Shown here: one piece after another, positions 7,972 to 61,226 of the stretch | How the letters are laid out: each line of letters opens with the position of its first letter | How positions within the stretch are numbered: the stretch's first letter is position 1 | Assembly: GCA_002245135.1 (NCBI GenBank) | Contig: NGBS01001182.1 | Span: 1 to 64,000, forward strand | Length of the DNA: 64,000 nucleotides | Reading direction: 5' to 3' | Origin: Proteromonas lacertae | Taxonomy: Eukaryota | Translations under genes and position numbers: made by a program | Notes under the pieces: model-generated | The model's input: the letters and a program-made list of their open reading frames with translations, nothing else | The model's database searches: none | Told to the model about the DNA's origin: nothing

Positions 7972-10900
7972 ATGTCAGTATATACTTATTATTTTACATC
8001 TATTTCATAGAGGTTCATTATCCTTGCTGTTATTTTAGCATTTGCATCAATCGCTGTTGCTCAGGATCAAAAGTATTTTTAATTTTTATCATTCAATAGA
8101 ATGAACTTTGGTGGAGTAAAATTGGAAAGATCAGCTGATTTAAAGTCGAATATTGCTTTAGGAAAGATCACTTATGATAATTGGGATAAATGTGCAGAAG
8201 AGAAAGCTCATTTCTTAATAATTTGTAAATTTGTTGATCATATTCCAGAAGAACGAGATTTCCATATTGAGAATTACGCTTGGGTTGAGTGTGAAGGAAA
8301 TAAGATAAATATAACTCAAAAAGGTCGAAAAGATAATCTTTTCTCTTGTGAATTAATCCACAATGAAGGTCGAAAACAATATGATATGAAATACAAATCT
8401 CTTCCTTTGTTATCAAAAGAATATGTAATAGAACGAGATGAAGATTTATCCAAATACCATGTTCGAAACAATTTAGCTTTAAACATGCCAGACTGTGATG
8501 CTGAGAAATCTAACTATGAATTATACTGTGGTTTCTTTACTGATGTAGTAAAATCTGAAGAAGTGAAAAAATCCGAAAATAAACGAGAAATAACTGGTGA
8601 TAAAACTCCTTTATCATTCTCTTCTAGTGGTATAGAAGATCATTATATAACATGTTATATATATCGATCATCTGATGGTAAAATAATCGATACTTACAGT
8701 TCTGGTTCACCTAGTTTAAATATTGAGAATTGGTCAATGAAGATAGGAAAAGACTTAAGTAAATATGAATTGCGAGGAGATAATCGATTAGAATGGAAAA
8801 CATGTAATATGAACAATGAAGTAATGGACTTTAGAATAACTTGTGGATTCTATAAAGATGTTCCAAGTCCATCTGATTTGCGAAATAGTTGGGAAATGGA
8901 TATGGAATTAGAATGTGGTGGTTGGCCTTGGCAAGTGATGTGGACAAAAGATGCTTCTTACAAATACTGGGGATGTATGACCTATGATGGAAAAGATAAA
9001 GCTGTAGCTGATTTAAAATATGTTGAAGTACCTAGTTTGATAATGCCAAATGCTGATTCAATTGTAGAGAAAGATAATAAATGGTATGTAAAAGATAAAT
9101 TACAATTTAAATGGACTAAATGTGAAACAGAACATGATGAATATGGTTATGTATGTGAATTCTTCAAGAATATTCCAACATATGAAGAATTAATAGAAAA
9201 GAAAGATAAGATCGGTAATATAAACTGTGTTGAAAACTCAATTGAAGATACATCTGATAATTTAAGTGAAGGATATTTAGTATGTGGAATATTGAGAAGA
9301 TCAACCAATGATGTAATATCAATGGAATATATAAGTAAGAAAAGTATTGATATTCAAGAAATATCCATGTATAAAGATGATAATAAGATCTATGCAAATG
9401 GTGATATAAGATTGAATTGGGCTAAATGTGAAAATGAAAAGAATGATTATGAATTGATTGTAAACTTTTTTGATCATTCTCCCTCTGTAGATGAAGATTG
9501 GTCAGGTAAAAGTATTGAAATAAGCTGTGGTAAAACCAAAGTTGATCATGAATATACCTCTGATTTAAAGAAGATTCACTTTGTAGTAAAATTGGTAAAG
9601 AAAGATAACAAGATAGTATATGATGTAGAATCAATAAAACTACCATCATTTGATATAAGTAAATTAAATGTATCTTTCACCAATAAATACCAAAATCATC
9701 GTATTATATCTGGTTTTATTCCAATCGATTTCCCTAATTGTGAACGAAATCATAATCAGTACAGTATAATCTGTGATTTCTCTACAACCATACCAACTTA
9801 TGAATCATTAATGAATGGATTTAAGAATAAGATTGTATGTGATGCTTGGGAATTAGAAGGATTAACATCCGTTGGAACAGATGATAGTGTATTTGGTTGT
9901 ATGATGATTGAAAATGAGAGTAAAAAGATGGTTGAATTAAAATCAATCGATTTCGATCCTCATCAAAGGTATGATTTATTAATTTTTATAATTTAATAGA
10001 ATGAACTTTGGTGGAGTAAAATTGGAAAGATCAGCTGATTTAAAGTCGAATATTGCTTTAGGAAAGATTACTTATGATAATTGGGATAAATGTGCAGAAG
10101 AGAAAGCTCATTTCTTAATAATCTGTAAATTTGTTGATCATATTCCAGAAGAACGAGATTTCCATATTGAGAATTACGCTTGGGTTGAGTGTGAAGGAAA
10201 TAAGATAAATATAACTCAAAAAGGTCGAAAAGATAATCTTTTCTCTTGTGAATTAATCCACAATGAAGGTCGAAAACAATATGATATGAAATACAAATCT
10301 CTTCCTTTGTTATCAAAAGAATATGTAATAGAACGAGATGAAGATTTATCCAAATACCATGTTCGAAACAATTTAGCTTTAAACATGCCAGACTGTGATG
10401 CTGAGAAATCTAACTATGAATTATACTGTGGTTTCTTTACTGATGTAGTAAAATCTGAAGAAGTGAAAAAATCCGAAAATAAACGAGAAATAACTGGTGA
10501 TAAAACTCCTTTATCATTCTCTTCTAGTGGTATAGAAGATCATTATATAACATGTTATATATATCGATCATCTGATGGTAAAATAATCGATACTTACAGT
10601 TCTGGTTCACCTAGTTTAAATATTGAGAATTGGTCAATGAAGATAGGAAAAGACTTAAGTAAATATGAATTGCGAGGAGATAATCGATTAGAATGGAAAA
10701 CATGTAATATGAACAATGAAGTAATGGACTTTAGAATAACTTGTGGATTCTATAAAGATGTTCCAAGTCCATCTGATTTGCGAAATAGTTGGGAAATGGA
10801 TATGGAATTAGAATGTGGTGGTTGGCCTTGGCAAGTGATGTGGACAAAAGATGCTTCTTACAAATACTGGGGATGTATGACCTATGATGGAAAAGATAAA

Positions 10901-13900
10901 GCTGTAGCTGATTTAAAATATGTTGAAGTACCTAGTTTGATAATGCCAAATGCTGATTCAATTGTAGAGAAAGATAATAAATGGTATGTAAAAGATAAAT
11001 TACAATTTAAATGGACTAAATGTGAAGCAGAACATGATGAATATGGTTATGTATGTGAATTCTTCAAGAGTATTCCAACATATGAAGAATTAATAGAAAA
11101 GAAAGATAAGATCGGTAATATAAACTGTGTTGAAAACTCAATTGAAGATACATCTGATAATTTAAGTGAAGGATATTTAGTATGTGGAATATTGAGAAGA
11201 TCAACCAATGATGTAATATCAATGGAATATATAAGTAAGAAAAGTATTGATATTCAAGAAATATCCATGTATAAAGATGATAATAAGATCTATGCAAATG
11301 GTGATATAAGATTGAATTGGGCTAAATGTGAAAATGAAAAGAGTGATTATGAATTGATTGTAAACTTTTTTGATCATTCTCCCTCTGTAGATGAAGACTG
11401 GTCAGGTAAAAGTATTGAAATAAGCTGTGATAAAACCAAAGTTGATCATGAATATACCTCTGATTTAAAGAAGATTCACTTTGTAGTAAAATTGGTAAAG
11501 AAAGATAGTAAGATAGTATATGATGTAGAATCAATAAAACTACCATCATTTGATATAAGTAAATTAAATGTATCTTTCACCAATAAATACCAAAATCATC
11601 GTATTATATCTGGTTTTATTCCAATCGATTTCCCTAATTGTGAACGAAATCATAATCAGTACAGTATAATCTGTGATTTCTCTACAACCATACCAACTTA
11701 TGAATCATTAATGAATGGATTTAAGAATAAGATTGTATGTGATGCTTGGGAATTAGAAGGATTAACATCCGTTGGAACAGATGATAGTGTATTTGGTTGT
11801 ATGATGATTGAAAATGAGAGTAAAAAGATGGTTGAATTAAAATCAATCGATTTCGATCCTCATCAAAGGTATGATTTATTAATTTTTATAATTTAATAGA
11901 ATGGATTTTAGTAGTTTTGCTCTTTCAAGAACATCAGATTTAAAAACAATTAAAGCTGCTGGAAAGATTACTTATGTAAATTGGCCAAACTGTACTGCAG
12001 AAAAATCCCATTTCTTAGTATTATGCAAATTCTTAGATCATGTTCCTAAAGAAACAGATTTTCATATCGAAGGTTATCAGAAAGTAGATTGTGATGGAAA
12101 TGTATTTAATGTGTCAACTACTGTAAAAGCAAATTCTGTATTTGCTTGTGAACTGATGCAAAAAGAGAATAGAAAACAATATGATATGAAATACAAATCT
12201 GTTCCAACATTATTAAAAGAATATAAAGTAAAGAGAGAAGAAGACTTTTCCAAATTCAAAGCTGAAGGTATGTTAGGTTACACTTGGCCAGATTGCGATT
12301 TAGAAGTTCATAATTATGAATTATTCTGTGGAATATTCGACAATATTCCCGAAACAAATGAAATTCGAAAAGAAGAATATAAACAAGCCATTACTTGCAA
12401 TGGAAATAAGATAAATTTTGAATCTAAAGGTGTTGAAGATCATTATTTGACTTGTTTAATATATCGTAAAACAGATGAGATGGTAATTGATAAAATCAGT
12501 TCAGGAACGCCTAGTTTAAATATTGAGAATTGGTCAATGAAGATAGGAAAAGACTTAAGTAAATATGAATTGCGAGGAGATAATCGATTAGAATGGAAAA
12601 CATGTAATATGAACAATGAAGTAATGGACTTTAGAATAACTTGTGGATTCTATAAAGATGTTCCAAGTCCATCTGATTTGCGAAATAGTTGGGAAATGGA
12701 TATGGAATTAGAATGTGGTGGTTGGCCTTGGCAAGTGATGTGGACAAAAGATGCTTCTTACAAATACTGGGGATGTATGACCTATGATGGAAAAGATAAA
12801 GCTGTAGCTGATTTAAAATATGTTGAAGTACCTAGTTTGATAATGCCAAATGCTGATTCAATTGTAGAGAAAGATAATAAATGGTATGTGAAAGATAAAT
12901 TGCAATTGAAATGGACTAAATGTGAAGCAGAACATGATGAATATGGTTATGTATGTGAATTCTTCAAGAGTATTCCAACATATGAAGAATTAATAGAAAA
13001 GAAAGATAAGATCGGTAATATAAACTGTGTTGAAAACTCAATTGAAGATACATCTGATAATTTAAGTGAAGGATATTTAGTATGTGGAATATTGAGAAGA
13101 TCAACCAATGATGTAATATCAATGGAATATATAAGTAAGAAAAGTATTGATATTCAAGAAATATCCATGTATAAAGATGATAATAAGATCTATGCAAATG
13201 GTGATATAAGATTGAATTGGGCTAAATGTGAAAATGAAAAGAATGATTATGAATTGATTGTAAACTTTTTTGATCATTCTCCCTCTGTAGATGAAGATTG
13301 GTCAGGTAAAAGTATTGAAATAAGCTGTGATAAAACCAAAGTTGATCATGAATATACCTCTGATTTAAAGAAGATTCACTTTGTAGTAAAATTGGTGAAG
13401 AAAGATAACAAGATAGTATATGATGTAGAATCAATAAAACTACCATCATTTGATATAAGTAAATTAAATGTATCTTTCACCAATAAATACCAAAATCATC
13501 GTATTATATCTGGTTTTATTCCAATCGATTTCCCTAATTGTGAACGAAATCATAATCAGTACAGTATAATCTGTGATTTCTCTACAACCATACCAACTTA
13601 TGAATCATTAATGAATGGATTTAAGAATAAGATTGTATGTGATGCTTGGGAATTAGAAGGATTAACATCCGTTGGAACAGATGATAGTGTATTTGGTTGT
13701 ATGATGATTGAAAATGAGAGTAAAAAGATGGTTGAATTAAAATCAATCGATTTCGATCCTCATCAAAGGTATGATTTATTAATTTTTATAATTTAATAGA
13801 ATGGATTTTAGTAGTTTTGCTCTTTCAAGAACATCAGATTTAAAAACAATTAAAGCTGCTGGAAAGATTACTTATGTAAATTGGCCAAACTGTACTGCAG

Positions 13901-16455
13901 AAAAATCCCATTTCTTAGTATTATGCAAATTCTTAGATCATGTTCCTAAAGAAACAGATTTTCATATCGAAGGTTATCAGAAAGTAGATTGTGATGGAAA
14001 TGTATTTAATGTGTCAACTACTGTAAAAGCAAATTCTGTATTTGCTTGTGAACTGATGCAAAAAGAGAATAGAAAACAATATGATATGAAATACAAATCT
14101 GTTCCAACATTATTAAAAGAATATAAAGTAAAGAGAGAAGAAGACTTTTCCAAATTCAAAGCTGAAGGTATGTTAGGTTACACTTGGCCAGATTGCGATT
14201 TAGAAGTTCATAATTATGAATTATTCTGTGGAATATTCGACAATATTCCCGAAACAAATGAAATTCGAAAAGAAGAATATAAACAAGCCATTACTTGCAA
14301 TGGAAATAAGATAAATTTTGAATCTAAAGGTGTTGAAGATCATTATTTGACTTGTTTAATATATCGTAAAACAGATGAGATGGTAATTGATAAAATCAGT
14401 TCAGGAACGCCTAGTTTAAATATTGAGAATTGGTCAATGAAGATAGGAAAAGACTTAAGTAAATATGAATTGCGAGGAGATAATCGATTAGAATGGAAAA
14501 CATGTAATATGAACAATGAAGTAATGGACTTTAGAATAACTTGTGGATTCTATAAAGATGTTCCAAGTCCATCTGATTTGCGAAATAGTTGGGAAATGGA
14601 TATGGAATTAGAATGTGGTGGTTGGCCTTGGCAAGTGATGTGGACAAAAGATGCTTCTTACAAATACTGGGGATGTATGACCTATGATGGAAAAGATAAA
14701 GCTGTAGCTGATTTAAAATATGTTGAAGTACCTAGTTTGATAATGCCAAATGCTGATTCAATTGTAGAGAAAGATAATAAATGGTATGTGAAAGATAAAT
14801 TGCAATTGAAATGGACTAAATGTGAAGCAGAACATGATGAATATGGTTATGTATGTGAATTCTTCAAGAGTATTCCAACATATGAAGAATTAATAGAAAA
14901 GAAAGATAAGATCGGTAATATAAACTGTGTTGAAAACTCAATTGAAGATACATCTGATAATTTAAGTGAAGGATATTTAGTATGTGGAATATTGAGAAGA
15001 TCAACCAATGATGTAATATCAATGGAATATATAAGTAAGAAAAGTATTGATATTCAAGAAATATCCATGTATAAAGATGATAATAAGATCTATGCAAATG
15101 GTGATATAAGATTGAATTGGGCTAAATGTGAAAATGAAAAGAGTGATTATGAATTGATTGTAAACTTTTTTGATCATTCTCCCTCTGTAGATGAAGACTG
15201 GTCAGGTAAAAGTATTGAAATAAGCTGTGGTAAAACCAAAGTTGATCATGAATATACCTCTGATTTAAAGAAGATTCACTTTGTAGTAAAATTGGTAAAG
15301 AAAGATAGTAAGATAGTATATGATGTAGAATCAATAAAACTACCATCATTTGATATTGGTAGTTTAGATTTCTCATTTACCAATCAGTATTATAATCACA
15401 GAATAATCTCTGGTTTTATTCCAATCGATTTCCCTAATTGTGAACGAAATCATAATCAGTACAGTATAATCTGTGATTTCTCTACAACCATACCAACTTA
15501 TGAATCATTAATGAATGGATTTAAGAATAAGATTGTATGTGATGCTTGGGAATTAGAAGGATTAACATCCGTTGGAACAGATGATAGTGTATTTGGTTGT
15601 ATGATGATTGAAAATGAGAGTAAAAAGATGGTTGGATTAGAATATGTCGAACTAGCAGGATTAATAATGGATGAGATAAAAATTAAGCATGCTGATAATA
15701 ACAAAATCACAGTGAATGGTTTATTAAAATACAAATTAGGAAAAGATGCCAAGGCTGAAGATTTCCATTATGAATGTAAATTATCAAATGAACTTCCAAC
15801 TCCATCATTATTCGATTATGAAAAGAGTGAGGTAATAAATGTAGAAGGAAATGAAGTAAACTTCTTTGAAGAATCTAATGAATTCTTTGGTTGTATTTTA
15901 TATCGAGTAAATGACAAAGGAATAATCGATTTACAATATAAAGAATTACCTGAATTCAATGTAGAACATTTACATTTAGAACCGAATAGAAATAGCCATG
16001 TATGGATTCCAGAAGGTGATATAACATATAAATGGTTTAGTTGCGGAATTAATAAAGATAAATTCGAATTAGCTTGTGAATACAGTGATAATGAACCAAG
16101 TTCCGTGAATTTGGACAAAGCTAGTAAATTTGATATTGTTTGTAGTGGAACAAATCTTACTTCCTTTACTACTGATCTAAATAATGAAGTTTACTTGGGT
16201 TGTTCTTTAGTGTCAAAAGATGATAAAGAAGTTTATGATTTCCACTTCATCAAAGGAAAAGAAAGTCATGATAGTGATTCTTCAAAAGTATGGATGATTG
16301 TTGTTACTTCTGCTTCTTGTGTCATTGCATTCCTTATTATTTTTACATTGGTTTGTTTCTTTGTCAGAAGTATGAATCTTAGAAGAAGAAAGAATTTGGA
16401 TGAAAAGTCTGACATTGCTGCTGAGAAATCATTACTAGCTAATGAGCAAGCTTAA
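7972..16455 (+). CDS. Giant type I membrane/surface protein (~2,776 aa) with ~26 tandem ~104-aa Cys-containing domains
   Basis: Exons 7972-7977, 8011-8072, 8100-9968, 10000-11868, 11900-13768 and 13800-16455 splice in frame; signal peptide MSRFIILAVILAFASIAVAQ; C-terminal TM (VWMIVV...LVCFFV) then basic RRRK. Confidence 0.85.
8100..15634 (+). repeat. Tandem array of four 1,900-bp units (1,869-nt exon + 31-nt intron), arrangement A-A-B-B
   Basis: Unit ATGs at 8101, 10001, 11901, 13801; near-identical over the 3' ~1.26 kb; the first 609 nt differ between units 1/2 and 3/4. Confidence 0.97.
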
Positions 16456-19071: not shown

Positions 19072-22000
19072 TTATTCAGATATGCCAAATGCTTCTTTTA
19101 TAATCTGTCTGTTTGGATTACTGAAATCTTTTTCATAATGATATGCTTTTTGACAAATTTCATTAATTTGATCATATTTTGATGCAAAGATGTTATATAA
19201 CTTCTCTTTAATAATCTCAATCAACCCACTCTCTTCTGATATTTGACTATTCACTCTACTCAACAATTTATCAACACTTTTATATAAATTCCTTTCACTA
19301 ATTGTGACATTCTACAAAATATTAATTATGTATATCATTATACTTTTATAAATTTTGCTTTCTGTATGTGATATTGTAATTCATCATATCCTTTTGTATG
19401 AATATGTAACAAAGCTTCACTTAAAGTAGATAATTGATTTTCAAATTGATCATTTAATAAAGTATCACAATATTCATTTAGTGATTTCTCAAACATAGTT
19501 TCAGCTTGATTTATATGATCTTTTAATAATTCATATTTCCTTACACTCATAGAAGCGAAAAAGAAATAATAATTCTCAAGCCTAAAGATTTGAGAATATT
19601 TAGGATTAGTATGACATAACATTTCAAGATGTGTGAATAGTTTTAATATTACTGTAGCGTATACATCTTCTAAGATTGTTGTATTGTGATTGGATGCGAC
19701 ATTGGCAGCACATTGAATATAGTAAAAAATAATAATTAAAGAAAATATTATTATTATATATATTTAAAAAAAGGGATATATCACAAAATATTGGCATTTT
19801 TCTAAGTGATATTAATATATGGCATTTACTAATATCTGGTTTTTGACTATCCATCCAATTACTCTAATAAATAAATAGAAATAGAAATAGAAATAGAAAT
19901 AGAAATAGAAATAGAAATAGAAATAGAAATAGAAAATAGAAATAGAAATAGAAATAGAAATAGAAATAGAAATAGAAATAGAAATAGAAATAGAAATAGA
20001 AATAGAAATAGAAATAGAAATAGAAATAGAAATAGAAATAGAAATAGAAATAGAAATAGAAAAAATAGAAATAGAAATAGAAATAGAAATAGAAATAGAA
20101 ATAGAAATAGAAATAGAAATAGAAATAGAAATAGAAAAATAGAAAAATATAATATAAATACAACTGAAGTAATATGCGATTTAATATCTTGACTCAATTT
20201 CAACTGTAATGACTCCATAATTGTCTGAATAAACTTATTATCTTTAGTTTTCTCTAATGTTGACAATATAATCTGAGACATTGAAATCATCTGATAAAAT
20301 GAACGATTATCATTATTTACTACTTTCATCAATTCAGGGAATAATCCATTGAATATTTGACTTAGAATTAATTGAACTGTTTTATTATTAACTACATCTT
20401 GAGGATTTAATCGAACATTTTGAATATTTCTTTTGGCTTTGATATTCTTATAATCTGATTTCTGTTTTAAATTTTCGAGAGTTTCGTCAACTCCACCACC
20501 ACCACAAAAGAAGTGGATCGAAAATGTTCGAACACCATTTACCAACGGAACTATAAAATCAGTTGATTTTCGAAATGCGGCAGCTACACTAATTTTTCCA
20601 CTATCTCCTTTGTAATATAAATAATATTGTTCTTCTATCATTCTCATTTCATCTTCTTGTCTTCCTAAGTTGCTATTTGCTAAATCTATTAATCTTCCTT
20701 GGCCTTCTTCATTTATACTTACTATATTCCTTTTGGTTGAACTGAAGAACTCTTTTAATGTTTTTGTCATCAAATTGGTCATCTTTTCACAGTAGATTGA
20801 TTGTAATTGTGTAAAGATTTTCATATCTTTCTTTTGAATTATCCATAACAATGGAGCTAATAATATCATTTGATTATGAACACTTTGAGGCGTACAGTTA
20901 TCTTTTGAAAATTCATTATTCAAAGTCTTCAACAAAAAATCTGCCAATTTTGCAAAAAATGATTTGATTGTTTCATCTAACTTCAACTGTTGTTCTTTAA
21001 TTGCTTTCATGTGTTTAAATGATACTCCATTGTAATCTTCATCACCTAAGCTCTTTAACATTAATAAACCATTGGCACAATGAACTACTTTTTCAATTGC
21101 ACCTTCTGATTGTTTTACTGATTCTTGATCACTAATTCGAGTTCTTTCAGCCTTTTCAACACCTACTGTCATAGCTGTTTCACCATATTTTTTGGCTTCT
21201 TTTATTACATCTAATAATACATCATCGACTGTGTTTAATACATTTACGATATCTTCATCTAAATCTAATCTTTTTACAAAATTCTATAAATAATAAATAA
21301 ATAAATAATAATAATAATAATATATACATTCAATTCTTCACACAACTTCCTTTGATTTTCAATCTGATATTGAATGGCATAATTCTGGCTTGAGATGATA
21401 TTCAAGCCTTGTTTCATTTTAATGTAATGTTCAGATTTAGAGTCTAACCATTGATACATTGCATCTAATTGCTTATCTAATTTATCTAACTGTTTAGTAA
21501 TATCTGTAACTGGACCATCTCGATCTTGCTCCCAATCTACCAGTTTGTTGTATATCATATCTTCATCAGTCTTCACTATTGCATCTAATTGCTTACGTGT
21601 TGATTGTGTAGATAAACCTCTGAATTCTTCAGAATTGAAATACAACTCCAAGTTCATCATTTCACTCTCTGAGGTTAGCATTGACTGAGAAATGTATAAT
21701 TTCTGCATTTCATCATCTTCTTCTTGAGATTGCAAAATTGACAGTCCATTCTGCCCTTCTGAGACTAATAATGGACATTTCTGTGCAAATCCACCTACTC
21801 TTGCTAATACGTTGATTGCACCAATATCAAAACCTGATGTATCGAATGGTGTTAAATATTTTTGAGCTAATTGGTATAATGTCCATACAAACATATTTCT
21901 GAGTTTTTCATTACCTGTTTTGTACATTTCTGGTTTGCCATTAACGAATATTGTGAACATGTCGTCTTTTCCTTGTATATTTTCTATTTTTGATACCATC

Positions 22001-26425: not shown

Positions 26426-29023
26426 TTACAATTCATCAAATTTTCTATACATATCTTCAATCTCAGCCTTTCTGTGACTTCTTGATCTATGCCATAAGAA
26501 TAATCCAACAACTACAATCACTGCAGCAATCACAATACAAACGATTGTGATTGTAGCAGTAGTTGTATCTGGTTTTGGAGTATCTGTTGGATCAGGAACT
26601 CTATTAAATGGTGTTGGATCTTGTTCAGGAATTGGATAAGGTTTATTCTTTGTTCCCCAAGCATGTAATGTATTTTCATCAGCTTTAATTTCATCAATAA
26701 CAAATTTTGGACCGAGTTCCTTTAGGATAGATATAAACTGTTTGATCTTTAGCTAATTCGACACTCCAATAACCAGCTTTAACATGAACTATTTTTACTG
26801 TTGCTGGTGTATGATCGAATTCACTTGTTAAATCATCCACTCTGATCTTTAATGGTGATCCAAATAATGATGTTATACTTATCCAATTGGTTTTACCTAA
26901 TTGTAAATGACCAGAAACACTAAATCCACCTTCAGCTTGTAATTGATAGAATGTTGTATTTTCTAAAGCTTTTGGTCTTGTTGGGAAAACAGTGAACATA
27001 TCCTTCATCAGATCTTAATAACATATATTGTAAAGCAAAATGCCATTCCAAATGGAGATTCATTCACTGGAGATTCACTTAGCTTCCCAGTAGAATGTAG
27101 CTTGTCCAACTCGATGACATTTCCAAGCTTCTAGTAATGTTTCCCAAGCTTTTTCATCTCTACCAGGTATTAATTGATAAAATACAGAAGCCATTACAAT
27201 ACTAAAACCAATATCAGTTACTCCAAAACTTGTCCAATGATCAATTGTTTTAGTCATTACTTCTGCTAATTCTGGATTTCCTTCGTATGTTTGTGTTTTG
27301 AACGGATATACCATAAAGATATGGCTCCAATGTCGATGTTGGCTTGCTAATTTCGTATCTTTGCCTATCAAATATCCTTCTTTTTCATCTTCATGATATG
27401 GAATTAAATTATCCATTAAGTCTTTACATCTTTCAATCATTTCTTCATCTGCTACTTTTAACATATCAATAATTTTAGTTAAATGACTACAGCTCCATCT
27501 GATTATTGATAAATCCCAATGTTGTATCTTCACAACTTGTAATATTCAGGACTATATGTAGATGGAAAATGATATTTACCATCCTTATCTTTAGTAGCAT
27601 AATGATAATAGAAATTAGTAGCTCTTCTAAGTGTAGGATATAAAACATCTCTTAATAATGTCTCATTATGTGTATATTGATAATGTAACCATAATATTTG
27701 ACAAACCCAATTCAAGTTTCCTGTTATTACCCACCTCTTGCTTTGACTACATCACCTGCTGTTCCCCATGATTGACTATCTAATTTCCAATCCCAACCTA
27801 ATTCAGTACCTAAAGCACCAGAATCACCTCTAAATTTCTCTTCAACACTTTCAGTTATTGCATCTTTATTTTTATCCATAAAGTGTAAAAATGATAAGAA
27901 TTGATCAGCATGATTAGCTCCCCATAAAGGCCAAGCTGCCATTTGAACATTTAAATCCATATGGTAATCACTCCAGTATGACTCAGTATACCAAGGACCT
28001 AATAAATCATAAGCCCAACAGTTATCTTCACTTTGACATCTTGTTGCTGATCCAACTTTATACATTTGAATCCACCAAAAACTTTCAGATTGTTTATGTG
28101 GAATAGAGATGAAAGATTTCTTATAATAATCATGCCACCATTGTTTATGTTCAATATAATGCTCACCTACATCAGTTCGTATATAATCTTGAAGTATTTT
28201 TATACCACCATCTATTGCATTTACATCTCTCTTATTACATTCCATGTTACTTGATTATCAATTGTTACATAATATGTAATATGATGGTCTTTATGATAAG
28301 TGATATTCGTCATAACCATTGAAAAATCACCACCAGCTAACATCACTTTTTCACAGTAATAGAAATATCTTCCACCTCTTATTTCATCTTTACAAACTGC
28401 ATCTGGATTGAATTTATAGTTATTCAACATTCTCTTGGCAAATGGTCTGCTCTTGGATGGTATTCGATTGGAACTATCTTTTCTTCACCTTCACTTTGCA
28501 TATCAATTACAAAGACATGATGTAAAGAATCTGTGAAAATTGTGTACCATATTTTACCTTTTGTGGTGACTAATTCACCTTCGATTTGTGCATCGTATAA
28601 GTTGATTCTGGCATTGCCTGATACTATATCTCCTGCTGGACGGATGTAGAAATAACCAACAGCCAATCTAAAACGATCAACTTCACTATTTAGATTATAA
28701 GATAAGTTGATTAATATTTATACGGATTGCCAGTTAGCTAAATCAGATCCTTTCATTCGATGATCCCACACATCAGCTCTACCAATATCGATTCTCATAA
28801 TACAATTGTCTGAATCATTCAAATATGTCAATATTCCTAGATTACCATTACCCACAAATGGAGCATCATACCACTTTTTATACCATGTTGAATTATCTGA
28901 AGCTTCAAACAACCATATAGGATCAGCCTTTTTCAAAAATCCCCTCCAATCAACTTTAACGTCTAGCTGAGCATTACAGTGTAATGCAAAGGCTAGAACA
29001 ACTAAAATCAAAAGATATTTCAT
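26426..29023 (-). CDS. GH95-like alpha-L-fucosidase with signal peptide and C-terminal TM anchor (frameshifted in this assembly)
   Basis: PFVGNGNLG, WSDYHMDLNVQM, PSTYSPEY, HRHWSH, LQAEGGFSVS; N-terminus MKYLLILVVLAFALHCNA; hydrophobic ITIVCIVIAAVIVVVGLFLW near the C-terminus. Confidence 0.8.
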
Positions 29024-29492
29024 TTGGGTGTTCGAAAAAAGATTTAAGTTGTTTTTGTTATATCTTATTTCATCAACATAATTATTTAGACAATAACCTA
29101 TTTTCTTGCTTATTGAGTTATGCTCATCTATTATGCACATTATTTTGAAATACAAAGATGTGTTACTTAAGAAATGTGTATTAATGAAGAAAAATCAATA
29201 CTAAAAATATATAATCGACCTTTTAATGTTATTATGATATGATTTTACATCCTTTTTAAAAACAATCAAAAATAATTCTTCTTATAAAACAAAAAATACT
29301 ATAGGCAACAAATGCTACACTACTTGAATATAATTGTTTCATATTAATATTCGTTCAATCCATAAAGAATGCTGAGATATAAAGAAATTAAATAAAAGAA
29401 GATACAAGGTGCCAAAAAATAAGCCAAAAAGTATCAAGCCTCAAACGCATTTCATCATCAACCAATCACAACAAAAAGTATCTTATTCATCA

Positions 29493-47350: not shown

Positions 47351-47935
47351 ATGTATTCCAAGTCTTTTTATGTTGCTAAAATTATTGTATTTTTATGTCT
47401 ATTTTACAATGTCTATCCTTTATCGCTAAGATACACTCAAGAAGTAAAGCCACCCTTCACATTAAATATCACAGTTACAGGATCATTAAAAGTAAATGCA
47501 TTTAGTAGATTATTTAGAGTAAAAGTTCTATATTCTGAGAGTGAGAAATGTTTTGAAGAAAAAAAGAAATCAGTGTATTTAATCGATTGTAAATCATCTT
47601 CTTCCAAACCTAAAGAAAAAGACTTTACTTTTAAAAACCCAATGGTTGTTAATTGTGTTGGTGAAAATATAGATAAATATGAAGGTAGTACTGATGATTA
47701 TTACTTCTCCTGTGCATTGAAAAATAATTCGACACAGCAGATAGTTGATATAGGAACATATCAAATTCCAAATTATGTCTGGAGTGGAATATTCATGAAA
47801 TTGGCATTAGTATTTATAATAATAAATGCATGTTGGTTGTTTAAATGTCAAGCATCCTTGTTTTCAAGAAATGAAGAAACTCCATCAACTGGAAATACTG
47901 TAGGTTATGCTCCAGTGCCAACAGATGCTAATTAA
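47351..47935 (+). CDS. Small type I membrane protein with one copy of the ~104-aa Cys domain found in the giant surface protein
   Basis: Signal peptide, C-C-C-C spacing and motifs matching the repeat domain, TM at the C-terminus. Confidence 0.7.
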   Translation: MYSKSFYVAKIIVFLCLFYNVYPLSLRYTQEVKPPFTLNITVTGSLKVNAFSRLFRVKVLYSESEKCFEEKKKSVYLIDCKSSSSKPKEKDFTFKNPMVVNCVGENIDKYEGSTDDYYFSCALKNNSTQQIVDIGTYQIPNYVWSGIFMKLALVFIIINACWLFKCQASLFSRNEETPSTGNTVGYAPVPTDAN

Positions 47936-53320: not shown

Positions 53321-56300
53321 CTATTCTTTATAACTACAATCTCCTTTCATTCCACTTGTTAAAGTGAATCTTTTATCAAAGCCATCATCATTATTACTAA
53401 TACTTGCTCCTATTTTATCACCTATCTTTTGGTCTTTCATATTTAATATTTGAACTACTAAATCCATTATTACATTTACATACTCTTGTGACTTTATTAC
53501 ATTCACCATTTCCACCACATTCTTCACATTTAATTACATTAACATCATTATCTACTAATTTGAGTTTAATATCATTATCATCTACTGTACCTTCACCTTC
53601 TTTTATTAATTTCAATCCAAGTGGAGATTTTAAATCTTCAGCACAATACTAAAATAATAATAATAATAACAAGATATACTCCTGGTAAATAAATTCTATA
53701 ACTATTAACAACATTATCACCACTTCCATCTACAGTTGGTCTATCACTACCACCACATATTGAATATAATCTAGTTGTTTCTGAATAATCAATTGTTGGT
53801 AAAGTATTAACAGCTGGGTTATTTGTAATAATAACATCACTTCTCATTATATTTATTCTTTCCAACATCTTTCTCCAATATTTTGGTGTATATCCTGATC
53901 TTAATTTTCTACTTGTTTCTTGATGTCTTTTTGCATCAGTAAATTCAAATCGATAAACTGTTTTAGGATTTTCAGGTGGATTTGTTGGACATTTTAATAC
54001 ATAATATGGAGGCGTTTTTGTAACTTTATGATTAGAATCAATTCCCAATTGGACCAAATGGACAAGTTGTACCACTACAATCAGTTCCACCATATAATGA
54101 ACCGCAATCACATTTCATATTTATATAACCAAATATATCATTACCTTCTAATTTTGGTTCTTTTACTTGCATTCCATTTTTACATCTCATATTCAATTTT
54201 TCACAATTTTCTCCTACAAATATTCCACTTTTATCACATGTACATCTTCCATTATTACATTCTCCTTGATTACTACATTCAGTCAATCCATGAACTATAT
54301 TATTATTTATTCCAAACCAACTATATCCAAATGGACATATTGATGTGGATGTTAAATCTGGTTCAGTTATTAATGCAGAGGTAAATTGACAATTTTTATC
54401 ATTATTTTTTCTTCCATATCCTGATTTACACTCACATTTACCACTCTCTCTATTACATGTTCCATGACCAGAACATTCAGATATTACTACTGAATTACCA
54501 AATACACTAATATCAGTAAATACATTCTTATTTACTGTTATTGTATTACCATCAACTGTATCTACTATTGATTCTCCATTAGTCACAGCTGTCACTGTAG
54601 CACTATTAACAATAGATAATTATTTATATATACTTTGGATTATTGGTAAATGTGAATTTGTATGTTTTTCCTCCAGTAAGTTTATTACTACTATCAGCTG
54701 ATAAATCTACACAACTTTCACTACATAAACTTATAGTAGTAATTACTTTTGTTTTATCCTACAAAATAAAATAATCATATTTATACTTTAATTGCAGTTA
54801 TAATTTCAGATATTGCTTTACCAGTTATATCAACCACTTTTCTAATACCATTATTCAATATTGTTATAAAATTTGCACTTTTACTATCTTCTATAGTAAA
54901 TGTTGATGTTGAAGATGATTTATCAGTAGAATATTCAATTTTATTATCTTTAACAACTGATTCACCACTAATAACATCAGTTACTTTAGCACTAATCATA
55001 ATAAACACAGAATCATATACTATGGATCTAATGGGAAAGTGAATTTATATTCTGTTCCAGTAGTAAATGGTGTTGTTTGAAGTTTATCCAATTACTACTA
55101 TCAGTACAAGTTTTGATGCATCACATTTATATATTTTCACCATTTTCACTATATTTGAATTCTATTAATATTGTAATGATAATAAATACAATAATAGATG
55201 AAATAATCTTATCTACTGAATCATCTTTTGATATAGCGACTTCTATTTCAGAAAATTCATTTTCTTCTATTTTTTATTTACATCAGTGATAAGTGTAGAT
55301 AATGAGCTGGAATATGATATAGTATTTTGAATTCTTATCATTATTGCTGTTTTTCCACTTGGTATAGTAAATTGAGAATATGCTTCTGTGTAATATTTCT
55401 TAGCATCCTGAAGAAGTGGATCAGGAGTTGTAGTAATTGCTTTCCCATCTGATATTTCTGTAACTTTTGTTCTATTATATAATAAATATAATTCATACTT
55501 GGAATTTAACAAAAATATGAATCTATATTTACTACCATCTACATCACTTCCACCAATTAATTTATTATCATTATCATCACTTATATCTACCCACTTATTA
55601 GTCTCATATTTATATATTCTAACATCACTAACTACACTTTTTTCCTATAAACATATATTATTATTTTTATACTTTTATCTTTGTAATAATGGCAGATATA
55701 GAAGATAAACCTAAAATATCAACATCAGCTGGAGTAGAATCTTTTGTTAGTATTAAAAATGCTGCAGTTTCGTCTTTTGGTATTGTAAAGTCTGAGGTAG
55801 ATATTTTATTTGATGATTCAATATTATCTTGAATAACAGAATCACTATCACCAGTAATATCAGTTAATTCAACACTATTAACATTATATATTAATTAATA
55901 CTTTGAATCTGATGGGAATATGAATCTATATTTAGTATTAGCAGTAAGTGTCTCACTATCACTAGCACTTATATCAACCCATTTATCAGTATTATATTTA
56001 TATATTCTAACATCACTAACTCCACCATTATTCTATTATATTATCATAATAATTAATGTTATACTGTAATAGCTGTGACAATAGTAGATATAGTCGTTGT
56101 ACTTGAAATATCAACATCTGATTGAGGAGTTGTATCTTTTGTTATTTTGATCTTCATATTGGAAGGAATTGCATCTGATTTAGTAGTAAAGTCATAAGTA
56201 TTAATATCTCCATTAGTAATACCACTATTACTATCTATAATAAAATCACCTTCTATTACCTCACTCACTACAATCCTAAATAACAATAGCAATATTCTTA

Positions 56301-57117
56301 TATACTCTTTATTTAATGGAAATGTAAATCTATATGTTTTTCCACCTACAAGTTTACCATCACTATCACTAATATCTTCACAAACTTTATCACATTCACT
56401 TACTTTAATCAATTTCACATCTATTTTTCTCTATCAATATTATATATATTATTATTTTAATACTTTTATATTTTCTATTACTTCAAGTATTGTTTTATCT
56501 TTTACAATAACATCATTTGCTTTTTCATCTTTTTTTATTTTCATTAATAATGCCTTTTTACTTAGTAGATATTGTAAATTGTGAATAATGAATCTCCATA
56601 TCTGATATTGTTATATTCACACCAAATGGACATGTCTTTTCTACACCATTCTCACAATTAACTCCACTATATCCCTTATTGCATTTACAACCATATATTC
56701 TCTTATCATTCTTATCATTTCTTCCTGATAATACATCAAGTAATACATGTTCACCATTTGGACTTTTCACAATCATCTTTATTAGTAATATTAAAAGAAT
56801 CACAACTTTCACCATAAAAACCAGGATCACATTCACATTTTCCAAGTTTACAACTACCTCTACCACTACATTCTACATCATTTTTGGAAGTATTAAACCA
56901 ATCTATTCCTTTTGGACATTCATGTTCAGAACAATCCATACCTCCAAAACCTTGAAAACAGTCACAAACGCCTTTTCTGCATATTCCTTTATTACTATAT
57001 TATTAAATAAACGAAATATTGATTATACCTACAGTCATTTAAACATATTGTATCAGGTGCACCATGTATTTCACATAGTAATACTACAACTATCAATATT
57101 ACTTTTAAATATCTCAT
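53321..57117 (-). CDS. Secreted multi-EGF protein resembling stramenopile mastigoneme/Sig1-type proteins, with five internal ~100-aa repeats
   Basis: Signal peptide MRYLKVILIVVVLLCEIHG; CP.G..WF....ECS..G.C..G.C.C..G..G..C modules; C-terminal KGDCSY. Confidence 0.7.
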
Positions 57118-59804: not shown

Positions 59805-60458
59805 TTAAATAAATATTAGCAAGGATATAAACAATAGAAGTATATTTATAACTACAGTGAAAGAATCTCCATTAAAAGTCTTAATTTGACTATATTTTCT
59901 AAATATACAACCATCTCCTGTTTGATCTTCACAAGTTGAACATTCTAAACCTGTTTTACACACTGCATATTTATTTTCATAATATTCACTGTAATAATCA
60001 TATAATTTATATCTATTATTCTCTGATTTATATGAAAAATCAGTTTCTATATCATTTGGATGTATTCCTGTAATATTAGCCAAATGTTTACCTATATCAT
60101 TATTTCTCACAAAAGTACCATCATAATATCTTATAATGGTTGAGACATAATTAATTTTATGTACATTATCACTTACTTTGGTAAGGTAAAATCTATTAAT
60201 ATGCATATAATAGAGTATTATTATACTTCTGCGTTTCTACTGCAGATGATGATTTTAAACCACAACTTTTATAATATAAGATAATCAGAGTGACATTCAT
60301 ATTTGTTTCATCGTAAAATACTTGTTTAGTTGAATTATAATCACAAATGGTGGTGTAGCCTTTATCGACACATACTATTTCAATTAAATAAAACGCATTA
60401 TACCAGCTTCCATAACTAAACACAAGTAAATGATTATCAATTCACTAAAAAACTTCAT
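59805..60458 (-). CDS. Small secreted, putatively GPI/TM-anchored Cys protein (paralog 1, frameshifted)
   Basis: Hydrophobic C-terminus; shares NVTL.IL.Y, ETQKY, I.YVST..R.Y and RYKLY..YSE.Y..KY..C with its neighbour. Confidence 0.65.
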
Positions 60459-60563: not shown

Positions 60564-61226
60564 TTAAATGAACAACACTAATATAAATATCATAACAATA
60601 ACATTGACTGTGATTAATGAAGAATTTGAAGTTGATACAGTTGGTATTTGAGTAAATACTTTCTTTTCAGTACAATCTGCACTCGATGTAGTAGTAGAAA
60701 TACAACAATTTAGTCGATTTTCACATATAATATACTTTTTATCATATTTTTCACTGTAATGTTTATATAATTTGTATCTTTCATCATCTGAATTGTAACC
60801 ATGATCTTTTTCTAGTTTTGTCCATTCTATACCAATTGTATCAAATAATTTTCTCCCATCATCTTTCTCTTTAGCATAATTTACTGAATAGAATCTGACT
60901 TGAGTTGAAACATAGTGGATTTGGTAAGTTCCTTCTGGTAATCCTTGCTTTGTTAAATACAACCTAAATATATAGCATTCAAATTGATACTTTTGAGTTT
61001 CAGTTGCATCAGAAAAATCAGCACTACATTTATCAAATGCATAATGTAGTATTAAAAGAGTAACATTTAGATTTGTATCATCCACTAAAGCTTGAGTAAT
61101 AGCATTATTATCACAATACGATTTGAATCCTATATCAGCAATACCTACAATATATTTTTGGAATTATATACAAGGTACTGTCATATAAAAAAACACTATA
61201 TAGATGAATATAAAACACTTTTTCAT
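60564..61226 (-). CDS. Small secreted, putatively GPI/TM-anchored Cys protein (paralog 2)
   Basis: Signal-like start MKKCFIFIYIVFFI, S/T-rich spacer and hydrophobic C-terminus. Confidence 0.7.

What the first reader, a model, noticed from the sequence alone, without database searches (positions are those of the whole stretch)
7972..16455. Four 'separate' ORFs are one giant modular surface protein built from identical-phase exon cassettes of an unrecognised Cys domain
Seen: each 631-aa ORF ends CAT CAA AG|gtatgatttattaatttttataatttaatag|A ATG. This identical 31-nt phase-2 intron (9969-9999, 11869-11899, 13769-13799) fuses the units in frame. Two tiny upstream exons add a signal peptide and the last exon adds a TM anchor. 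Each 623-aa cassette holds six ~104-aa domains (W..C...Y...C.FF...P...I.C...C...D...P), ~26 in total. I do not recognise the domain. Inference: an extendable adhesin or surface-coat antigen whose length can change by whole-cassette gain, loss or skipping without breaking frame.
Basis: partly seen in the sequence, partly recalled or inferred. Interest (0 to 1): 0.88.

Follow-up and report, generated by a model that had tools for sequence, protein, structure and literature searches.

The report
Giant 26-domain protist surface rod
Four back-to-back reading frames in an AT-rich protist join across tiny introns into one predicted 2,776-residue membrane protein made of 26 copies of an uncatalogued, fibronectin-like domain, likely a cell-surface rod that grew from an 8-domain ancestor by repeated duplication.

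Summary
Observation confirmed. Six exons (7972-16455) give one open 2,776-aa frame: signal-like N-terminus, 26 domains of about 102 aa, one transmembrane segment, short tail. The three 31-nt spacers look like this genome's other introns. No RNA data were available, so splicing is inferred.

The domain reaches no Pfam cut-off, but models confidently (pLDDT 92) as a fibronectin-III/Ig-like beta-sandwich (best Z 7.9; tandem FN3 arrays E 2e-9). Eleven unnamed homologues exist. Three appear to be exons of one 8-domain orthologue matching D1-D8 in order.

The units are not identical: A-A-B-B'. D1-D2 differ strongly (dS about 1.1, dN/dS about 0.35); D3-D6 are 98-99% identical mosaics. Each internal junction is a decayed copy of the signal-peptide exon's end plus its intron. 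The identical phase is therefore a by-product of duplicating one intron, not a shuffling device. Skipping a 1.9-kb exon between 31-nt introns is unlikely; unequal crossover is the likely route to length change.

Verdict: a new domain family in a familiar architecture. The scan had not noted this family before; it noted a comparable exon-built Cys-repeat surface gene in another genome.

The parts
7972..7977 (+). Exon 1 (Met-Ser)
   Evidence: retaining the next intron stops the frame after 12 codons
7978..8010 (+). Intron 1, 33 nt, phase 0
   Evidence: inferred
8011..8072 (+). Exon 2, predicted signal peptide; its last 27 nt (8046-8072) are the likely source of the internal junction tails
   Evidence: hydropathy; 19/27 identity to the tails
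8073..8099 (+). Intron 2, 27 nt, phase 2; likely homologue of the 31-nt introns
8100..9968 (+). Exon 3, unit 1: D1a, D2a (8101-8712), D3-D6, junction tail 9942-9968
9969..9999 (+). 31-nt phase-2 intron; in-frame stops if retained
10000..11868 (+). Exon 4, unit 2: D1a, D2a, D3-D6, tail; 9 base differences from unit 1
11869..11899 (+). 31-nt phase-2 intron (identical copy)
11900..13768 (+). Exon 5, unit 3: D1b, D2b (11901-12512), D3-D6, tail
13769..13799 (+). 31-nt phase-2 intron (identical copy)
13800..16455 (+). Exon 6, unit 4: D1b, D2b, D3-D6 with its own D6 start and end, D7 (15658-15951), D8 (15952-16257), anchor, tail, stop
16288..16365 (+). Predicted transmembrane segment, followed by a basic juxtamembrane stretch and a tail of about 29 aa
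   Evidence: hydropathy; sequence
47351..47935 (+). Second family member in the window: one domain plus a C-terminal hydrophobic segment (194 aa)
   Evidence: domain HMM E 4.9e-10; sequence

Best explanation
The region holds six exons that read as one open 2,776-codon frame and are likely spliced into a single type I membrane protein, whose 26 domains are predicted to be disulfide-braced FN3/Ig-like beta-sandwiches forming a long surface rod that likely serves in adhesion or the cell coat. Shown: the frame, domain count, unit mosaic and homologous family. Inferred history: an 8-domain ancestor (signal, D1-D8, anchor) duplicated a segment running from the end of the signal-peptide exon, through intron 2, to the end of D6, giving A-B. 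D1-D2 then diverged under purifying selection while D3-D6 were homogenised by conversion. Two later unequal crossovers gave A-A-B-B': one at the shared intron 3' end, one inside D3-D6. Inferred function: four D1-D2 pairs of two kinds are held on near-identical four-domain spacers, up to roughly 90-100 nm from the membrane (3.5-4 nm per domain, recalled value). Length would change by DNA recombination between units rather than by exon skipping.
For: Splicing: single open frame with signal only in exons 1-2 and anchor only in exon 6. ORFs are 4 nt apart. Of 34 other frame-joining GT-AG candidates in the window, 29 start GTAT, range 28-69 nt, median 37. The neighbouring CK2-beta gene reads open across 26- and 39-nt introns of the same type. 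B-type D1-D2, reachable from the signal peptide only across a 31-nt intron, keep 8 of 8 Cys, and A versus B gives dN 0.40 and dS 1.13. Fold: pLDDT 92, pTM 0.82, seven strands; top VIA hits are GH2 Ig-like and FN3 domains, Z 7.9 at rmsd 3.1 over 93 residues; the four-domain model hits tandem FN3 arrays, E 2e-9. Disulfides: 39 of 44 aligned domains keep all four Cys; 4 of the 5 departures lose a pair (C1+C3 twice, C2+C4 in D5 and its orthologue). History: junction tails match exon 2's end at 19/27, and 0 of 55,374 other + strand 27-mers reach that score. Homologues P0009, P0001 and P0002 match D1, D2-5 and D6-8+anchor, best match in order for 8 of 8 domains, and their three clusters share three contig lengths. 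D1a+D1b and D2a+D2b are starred sisters. Unit 3 carries the A-type D6 start and tail, as a crossover inside D3-D6 predicts.
Against: No transcript or peptide was seen. No ligand or localisation is known; 'adhesion or coat' rests on architecture alone, and a receptor or sensor role is not excluded. The best single-domain Z (7.9) lies in the range the tool calls a common arrangement, Foldseek gave no single-domain hit at E<=0.001, and the tandem hits have TM-scores of only about 0.15-0.23. Control dinucleotides gave 10, 20 and 24 clusters against 37 for GT-AG, and the script preferred GTA/TAG ends among alternatives. One of 59 other intron-like segments scored as high against the 31-nt intron as intron 2 did. 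The 8-domain orthologue is pieced together from protein fragments and shared contig lengths, not from DNA. In the corrected tree D1 and D2 orthology is unresolved and D7 is unstarred. Copy number rests on one assembly.
Confidence: 0.68

Rival explanations
1. One reading: the units are designed exon cassettes, and alternative splicing (skipping) tunes protein length.
For: All six skip products tested stay in frame (2,153, 1,530 or 907 aa). Phase 2 is the rarest class among other candidate introns (5 of 34), so four in a row look striking.
Against: The four phase-2 introns descend from one, so symmetry is automatic. Skipping needs an intron of about 1.9 kb, where candidate introns are 28-69 nt (that scan looked only up to 70 nt). 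[quoted passage not shown]
Confidence: 0.07
2. The gene is real but the assembly overstates the copy number: for example two alleles, or a 2-3 unit gene, laid in tandem.
For: Near-identical 1.9-kb units with perfect stretches of 903 and 1,343 nt. Site patterns in D3-D6 are incongruent (AABB, ABBB, ABAB, ABBA, AABA), which mixed haplotypes could also give.
Against: Every pair of units differs (at least 7 of 1,221 core bases). The junction types present (exon 2-D1a, D6-D1a, D6-D1b, D6-D7) need at least three units. Concatenated alleles would give A-B-A-B, not A-A-B-B.
Confidence: 0.13
3. The 31-nt introns are often retained on purpose, releasing secreted 6-, 12- and 18-domain forms beside the anchored one.
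For: Retention gives stops within the intron and anchor-less products of 654, 1,277 and 1,900 aa. [quoted passage not shown]
Against: The intron ends are ordinary for this genome. Premature stops would normally invite nonsense-mediated decay (general knowledge). No RNA evidence.
Confidence: 0.07
4. Four separate tandem genes, each starting at the ATG that opens its ORF.
For: Each ORF opens with ATG and has its own stop.
Against: Only 4 nt between ORFs. No signal peptide on any of the four and no anchor on the first three, yet the Cys pattern of secreted domains is conserved.
Confidence: 0.04

Closest known systems
Tandem fibronectin type III ectodomains (fibronectin FN7-10 1fnf, leptin receptor 8dh9, gp130, receptor phosphatases CD45/LAR)
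   Same: Predicted seven-strand beta-sandwich of about 100 aa in tandem; type I topology as in the receptors; top Foldseek hits of the four-domain model.
   Different: About 10% identity; no Pfam fn3 hit; extra short helices after strands B and C; own C1-C3/C2-C4 cysteine pattern; single-domain Z only about 6.
Ig-like accessory domains of GH2 glycosidases (9nfe, Z 7.9)
   Same: Best single-domain structural match.
   Different: 10% identity; these are spacers of bacterial enzymes. No catalytic domain here, and no evidence of common descent.
Bacterial Periscope Proteins (SasG, Rib, Sgo_0707; PMC8201768, passages)
   Same: Long near-identical DNA repeats encoding folded domains between an N-terminal signal and a C-terminal anchor; length change by intragenic recombination is the mechanism proposed for them.
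   Different: Eukaryotic and intron-containing; the repeat is six domains, not one; no distinct N-terminal ligand-binding domain; strain-level length variation not shown.
Blastocystis Ig-domain candidate adhesins (IPR008009; PMC3129679, passages)
   Same: Beta-sandwich surface proteins proposed as adhesins in a possibly related lineage.
   Different: No Pfam model, that family included, reached its cut-off on these domains; this family is Cys-braced.
Apicomplexan SRS/SAG1 and 6-Cys (s48/45) domains (recalled)
   Same: Lineage-specific, disulfide-braced beta-sandwich surface families of protists.
   Different: Six Cys and usually a GPI anchor and few domains (recalled); no Pfam match here.

Membership tests
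Fibronectin type III (Pfam fn3 and clan) | Sequence match to an FN3 profile | tested here: not met
   No Pfam model reached its cut-off for 2 ORFs or 20 proteins and domains; weakest trace PF24169 Fn3-like, E 0.087 on D5
Fibronectin type III (Pfam fn3 and clan) | Seven-strand beta-sandwich fold | tested here: inconclusive
   Seven strands in the model; FN3 chains at Z 5.5-6.4; tandem FN3 at E 2e-9 but TM about 0.17. Works like FN3; membership not shown
Immunoglobulin superfamily (V/C/I-set) | Profile match, and a canonical B-F disulfide with a C-strand Trp (recalled) | tested here: not met
   No Pfam Ig hit; paired losses point to C1-C3 and C2-C4, the latter on strands C and F; Atlas C2-set rows at 0.77-0.78 are below the lead threshold
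SRS / 6-Cys s48/45 | Six conserved Cys and a profile match | tested here: not met
   Four conserved Cys columns in 44 domains; no Pfam hit
SRS / 6-Cys s48/45 | Shared fold | tested here: inconclusive
   No direct structural comparison was made; one search lists only the top 50 entries
Periscope Proteins | Tandem repeats of very high DNA identity | tested here: met
   D3-D6 core differs at 7-28 of 1,221 bases between units
Periscope Proteins | Distinct N-terminal ligand-binding domain on the stalk | tested here: not met
   All 26 domains belong to one family; D1-D2 are divergent members of it, not a separate head
Periscope Proteins | Repeat number varies between strains | not testable with these tools
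Periscope Proteins | Extended rod | tested here: inconclusive
   Four-domain model pLDDT 78, pTM 0.64; geometry not inspected
Symmetric exon modules spread by intronic recombination (exon shuffling) | Breakpoints inside introns at domain boundaries | tested here: not met
   The founding breakpoint lies in exon 2, 27 nt before the intron; each exon holds six domains
Type I membrane protein | N-terminal signal, single C-terminal transmembrane segment, short tail | tested here: met
   Hydropathy on the spliced frame; same anchor position in P0002, P0003, P0005 and P0010

The most novel reading that the evidence does not exclude
A eukaryotic periscope: an undescribed FN3-like domain family builds the surface layer of a gut-protist lineage, and this gene changes its reach and its number of two kinds of binding heads (D1-D2 type A or B) from strain to strain or cell to cell by unequal crossover between homogenised six-domain units, with retention of the 31-nt introns releasing soluble decoys.
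Probability: 0.2. Interest if true: 0.68.

Novelty: new variant of a known kind. Interest (0 to 1): 0.45.

Why it matters
It defines a surface-domain family that Pfam and the PDB sequence search miss. All 43 members read from 10 of its 11 clusters are unnamed Logan entries. The lineage is a long-branch, stramenopile-side protist. If it is Blastocystis-like, as inferred, the family offers concrete candidates for coat or adhesion proteins, which the papers read here treat as speculative. The gene also keeps an unusually legible record of how a giant modular protein arises: an exonic breakpoint that turned a signal-peptide end into a linker, conversion of the spacer domains, and retention of two divergent D1-D2 types. 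The overall architecture (signal, beta-sandwich array, anchor; growth by unequal crossover) is familiar, which caps the surprise.

Tried and rejected
No whole genome is held, so family size in this organism is unknown. No sequencing run was listed; this is no evidence on expression.

Word-indexed homologue searches with ORF 4 found none at 486-1,547 aa (0 of 6,011 candidates) or 1,548-4,420 aa (0 of 3,569), although HMMER later found a 776-aa relative, so these blanks are weak. Two metagenome scans found no locus (0 of 322 and 0 of 161 pattern hits), so homologue introns could not be seen as DNA.

The PDB sequence search with the domain profile gave a best E of 0.074. The viral fold library gave none at E<=0.001. 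Atlas hits were all 0.81 or lower, leads only. SRS and 6-Cys chains were not noticed among the 50 VIA rows, which does not exclude them.

The human-subtype Blastocystis downstream motif (octamer recalled) occurs 6 times against 6.1 expected; no taxon signal. One search used a start off by one and was redone. The 47-kb paralogue was out of frame; it was ignored there and corrected.

Whole-gene duplication followed by later fusion was considered. It is less favoured, because the junction tail changed 6 of 9 residues away from a signal-peptide end, so the fusion looks as old as the A/B split (inference). No complex prediction was run, as no binding partner is claimed.
Full report
Setting. The window is 20-33% GC per kb and eukaryotic: CK2-beta, a WD40-cyclophilin, Sec3 and GH95 pieces lie nearby. 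The WD40-cyclophilin has two unnamed relatives at 89% and 69%, then oomycetes at about 50% (no Blastocystis-named row among the 120 listed). In a quick tree of 40 rows (39 picked from those 120, plus the window) the three form a long branch outside the oomycete/ochrophyte group, on the stramenopile side of a 97-supported split. A Blastocystis/Proteromonas-type gut protist is my inference, not a result. Human Blastocystis subtypes have 30-nt introns and 39-55% GC; tortoise isolates have longer, variable introns and 21-23% GC (PMC10690189, sections 7 and 28). The organism was not identified further.

Observation. Four ORFs (631, 631, 631, 884 aa) lie 4 nt apart. The 31-nt spacer is identical three times. 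With exons 7972-7977 and 8011-8072 in front, the six exons give 2,776 aa with one terminal stop and phases 0,2,2,2,2. The product has a hydrophobic N-terminus, one C-terminal hydrophobic segment, 94 Cys, 22 N-glycosylation sequons and a mass of about 322 kDa. There are 26 domains.

Are the spacers introns? No RNA could be laid, so this is inferred. A frame-joining scan (20-70 nt) found 37 GT-AG clusters including the three spacers. Of the other 34, 29 start GTAT, median length is 37 nt, and phases 0/1/2 number 18/11/5. Control dinucleotides gave 10, 20 and 24 clusters, and the script preferred GTA/TAG ends. CK2-beta upstream reads open across 26- and 39-nt introns of the same kind, one of four solutions, chosen by a recalled conserved motif. 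Only the spliced form has both signal and anchor. B-type D1-D2 can enter the secretory path only across a spacer, yet keep all eight Cys, and A versus B shows dN 0.40 against dS 1.13.

The domain. No Pfam family reaches its cut-off. The PDB sequence search gives a best E of 0.074. AlphaFold2 on an 11-row alignment of the gene's own domains gave pLDDT 92.4 and pTM 0.82, with seven strands and two short helices. Foldseek found no single-domain match at E<=0.001. VIA over 48,161 chains gave none at Z>=8; the top rows are GH2 Ig-like domains (Z 7.9, rmsd 3.1, 93 aligned, 10% identity) and FN3 domains of CD45, DCC and cytokine receptors (Z 5.5-6.4). A D2-D5 model (pLDDT 78) hits tandem FN3 arrays (leptin receptor E 2e-9, fibronectin 7-10 E 5e-8) with low TM-scores. 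It therefore works like an FN3/Ig-like sandwich without being a shown member. Of 44 aligned domains, 39 keep four Cys. Losses are C1+C3 (D7, P0003 d6), C2+C4 (D5 and its orthologue) and C3 alone (D2a), which points to C1-C3 and C2-C4 bonds and a possible free Cys in units 1-2.

Family. phmmer over 1.84 billion representatives gave 11 hits at E<=0.001. The ten clusters looked up hold 43 members, all Logan-only and unnamed. They range from one to at least seven domains; several end in a membrane anchor, and one has Pro/Thr-rich linkers. A one-domain paralogue lies at 47351-47935. P0009, P0001 and P0002 match D1, D2-D5 and D6-D8+anchor. Each of their 8 domains is most like the same-position window domain (35-50%), and the three clusters share contig lengths 5,652, 6,371 and 6,711. 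In the corrected tree D3, D4, D5, D6 and D8 pair with starred support, D7 at 87/82, and D1 and D2 are unresolved (bootstrap not fully settled). I infer a single-unit 8-domain orthologue. In 5 of 11 representatives the sequence after a domain's final Pro turns into S/C-I plus aromatic residues, as a read-through phase-1 intron would. Relatives thus seem to have boundary introns that this gene lacks, but most of their boundaries are intron-free.

How the array arose. Units 1-2 and 3-4 differ at about 37% of bases over D1-D2 and by 7-8 of 1,221 bases over the D3-D6 core; unit 4 differs by 23-28 because of a private patch at the start of D6. The last 27 nt of units 1-3 match the last 27 nt of the signal-peptide exon at 19 positions, and 0 of 55,374 other + strand 27-mers do so. 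The 31-nt intron aligns with the 27-nt intron 2, although 1 of 59 other candidates ties that score. The founding duplication therefore most likely ran from inside exon 2 through intron 2 to the end of D6. Duplicating a segment that holds one intron always yields same-phase introns, so the symmetry needs no further explanation. D1a+D1b and D2a+D2b are sisters and closer to each other (54%, 46%) than to the orthologue (29-39%), so the duplication postdates that split. A crossover at the shared intron 3' end explains unit 2 (31-nt intron before D1a). A crossover inside D3-D6 explains unit 3 (B head, A-type D6 and tail). Incongruent site patterns (AABB, ABBB, ABAB, ABBA, AABA) indicate continuing exchange, or phasing error in the assembly.

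How it likely works. A glycosylated, disulfide-braced rod anchored by one helix would reach about 90-100 nm if extended, against about 30 nm for 8 domains (per-domain length recalled). The two D1-D2 types escaped homogenisation, and the A/B divergence ends at codon 203, at the D2/D3 boundary. This fits distinct binding heads on interchangeable spacers, but a single conversion tract would also explain it. Adhesion or coat is the most likely role; no ligand is known. All skip products are in frame, and retention would give secreted 654-, 1,277- and 1,900-aa forms. Skipping is tied to short exons with long introns, the opposite of this gene (PMC6142364, passages).

Comparison and literature. The nearest working analogue is the bacterial Periscope class (PMC8201768, passages): high-identity repeats are met, a distinct head is not met, strain variation is untested. 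Blastocystis papers name Ig-domain (IPR008009) and collagen-like candidates as adhesins (PMC3129679 and PMC5608401, passages). I found no description of this family in searches (listings only) or in term look-ups in PMC10690189 v2, PMC12129017, PMC5608401 and PMC3129679. Searches concerned mechanisms. I read no supplements and could not see version 1 of the preprint, which discusses adhesion genes; tables of lineage-specific families there may list this gene. The scan's earlier notes hold no relative by sequence and nothing on this genome. One note on another genome reached a similar sober reading for TNFR-like exon-built proteins (unchecked).

Verdict. The feature is real and the single-gene model is probable. 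It is a new sequence family of FN3-like domains in a known architecture, grown by a known mechanism. Interest 0.45.

Noticed in passing
window 47351-47935 +: One-domain member of the same family with a C-terminal hydrophobic segment (HMM E 4.9e-10).
   Followed up: partly
P0001, P0003, P0004, P0007, P0009: ORFs end, or read through, right after a domain's last Pro with the signature of a phase-1 intron; the window gene has no introns at these boundaries, so intron gain or loss has occurred at domain junctions.
   Followed up: partly
window 8407-8712 and 10307-10612: D2a has lost its third Cys only, leaving a possibly free Cys twice per chain (a candidate for cross-linking).
   Followed up: no
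window, unit codons 203-204 and 519-536 (about 14410 and 15355-15408): Two ends of homogenised tracts fall within 4 codons of domain boundaries (D2/D3, D5/D6); unit 4 keeps an old private version of the start of D6.
   Followed up: partly
window 59805-60236 and 60564-61163 -: Two neighbouring small ORFs with a similar Tyr/Cys motif and hydrophobic C-termini, apparently tandem paralogous membrane or GPI proteins.
   Followed up: no
window about 26426-29194 -: Multi-exon GH95 (alpha-fucosidase-like) gene, apparently with signal and C-terminal anchor; GH95 is mostly bacterial (recalled), so a possible transfer.
   Followed up: no
window 19873-20137: Hexanucleotide microsatellite, 44.5 copies, within the Sec3-like gene on the minus strand.
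   Followed up: no
window about 53638-56430 -: Multi-exon gene with EGF-like Cys-rich stretches and a short internal repeat, a second probable surface protein.
   Followed up: no
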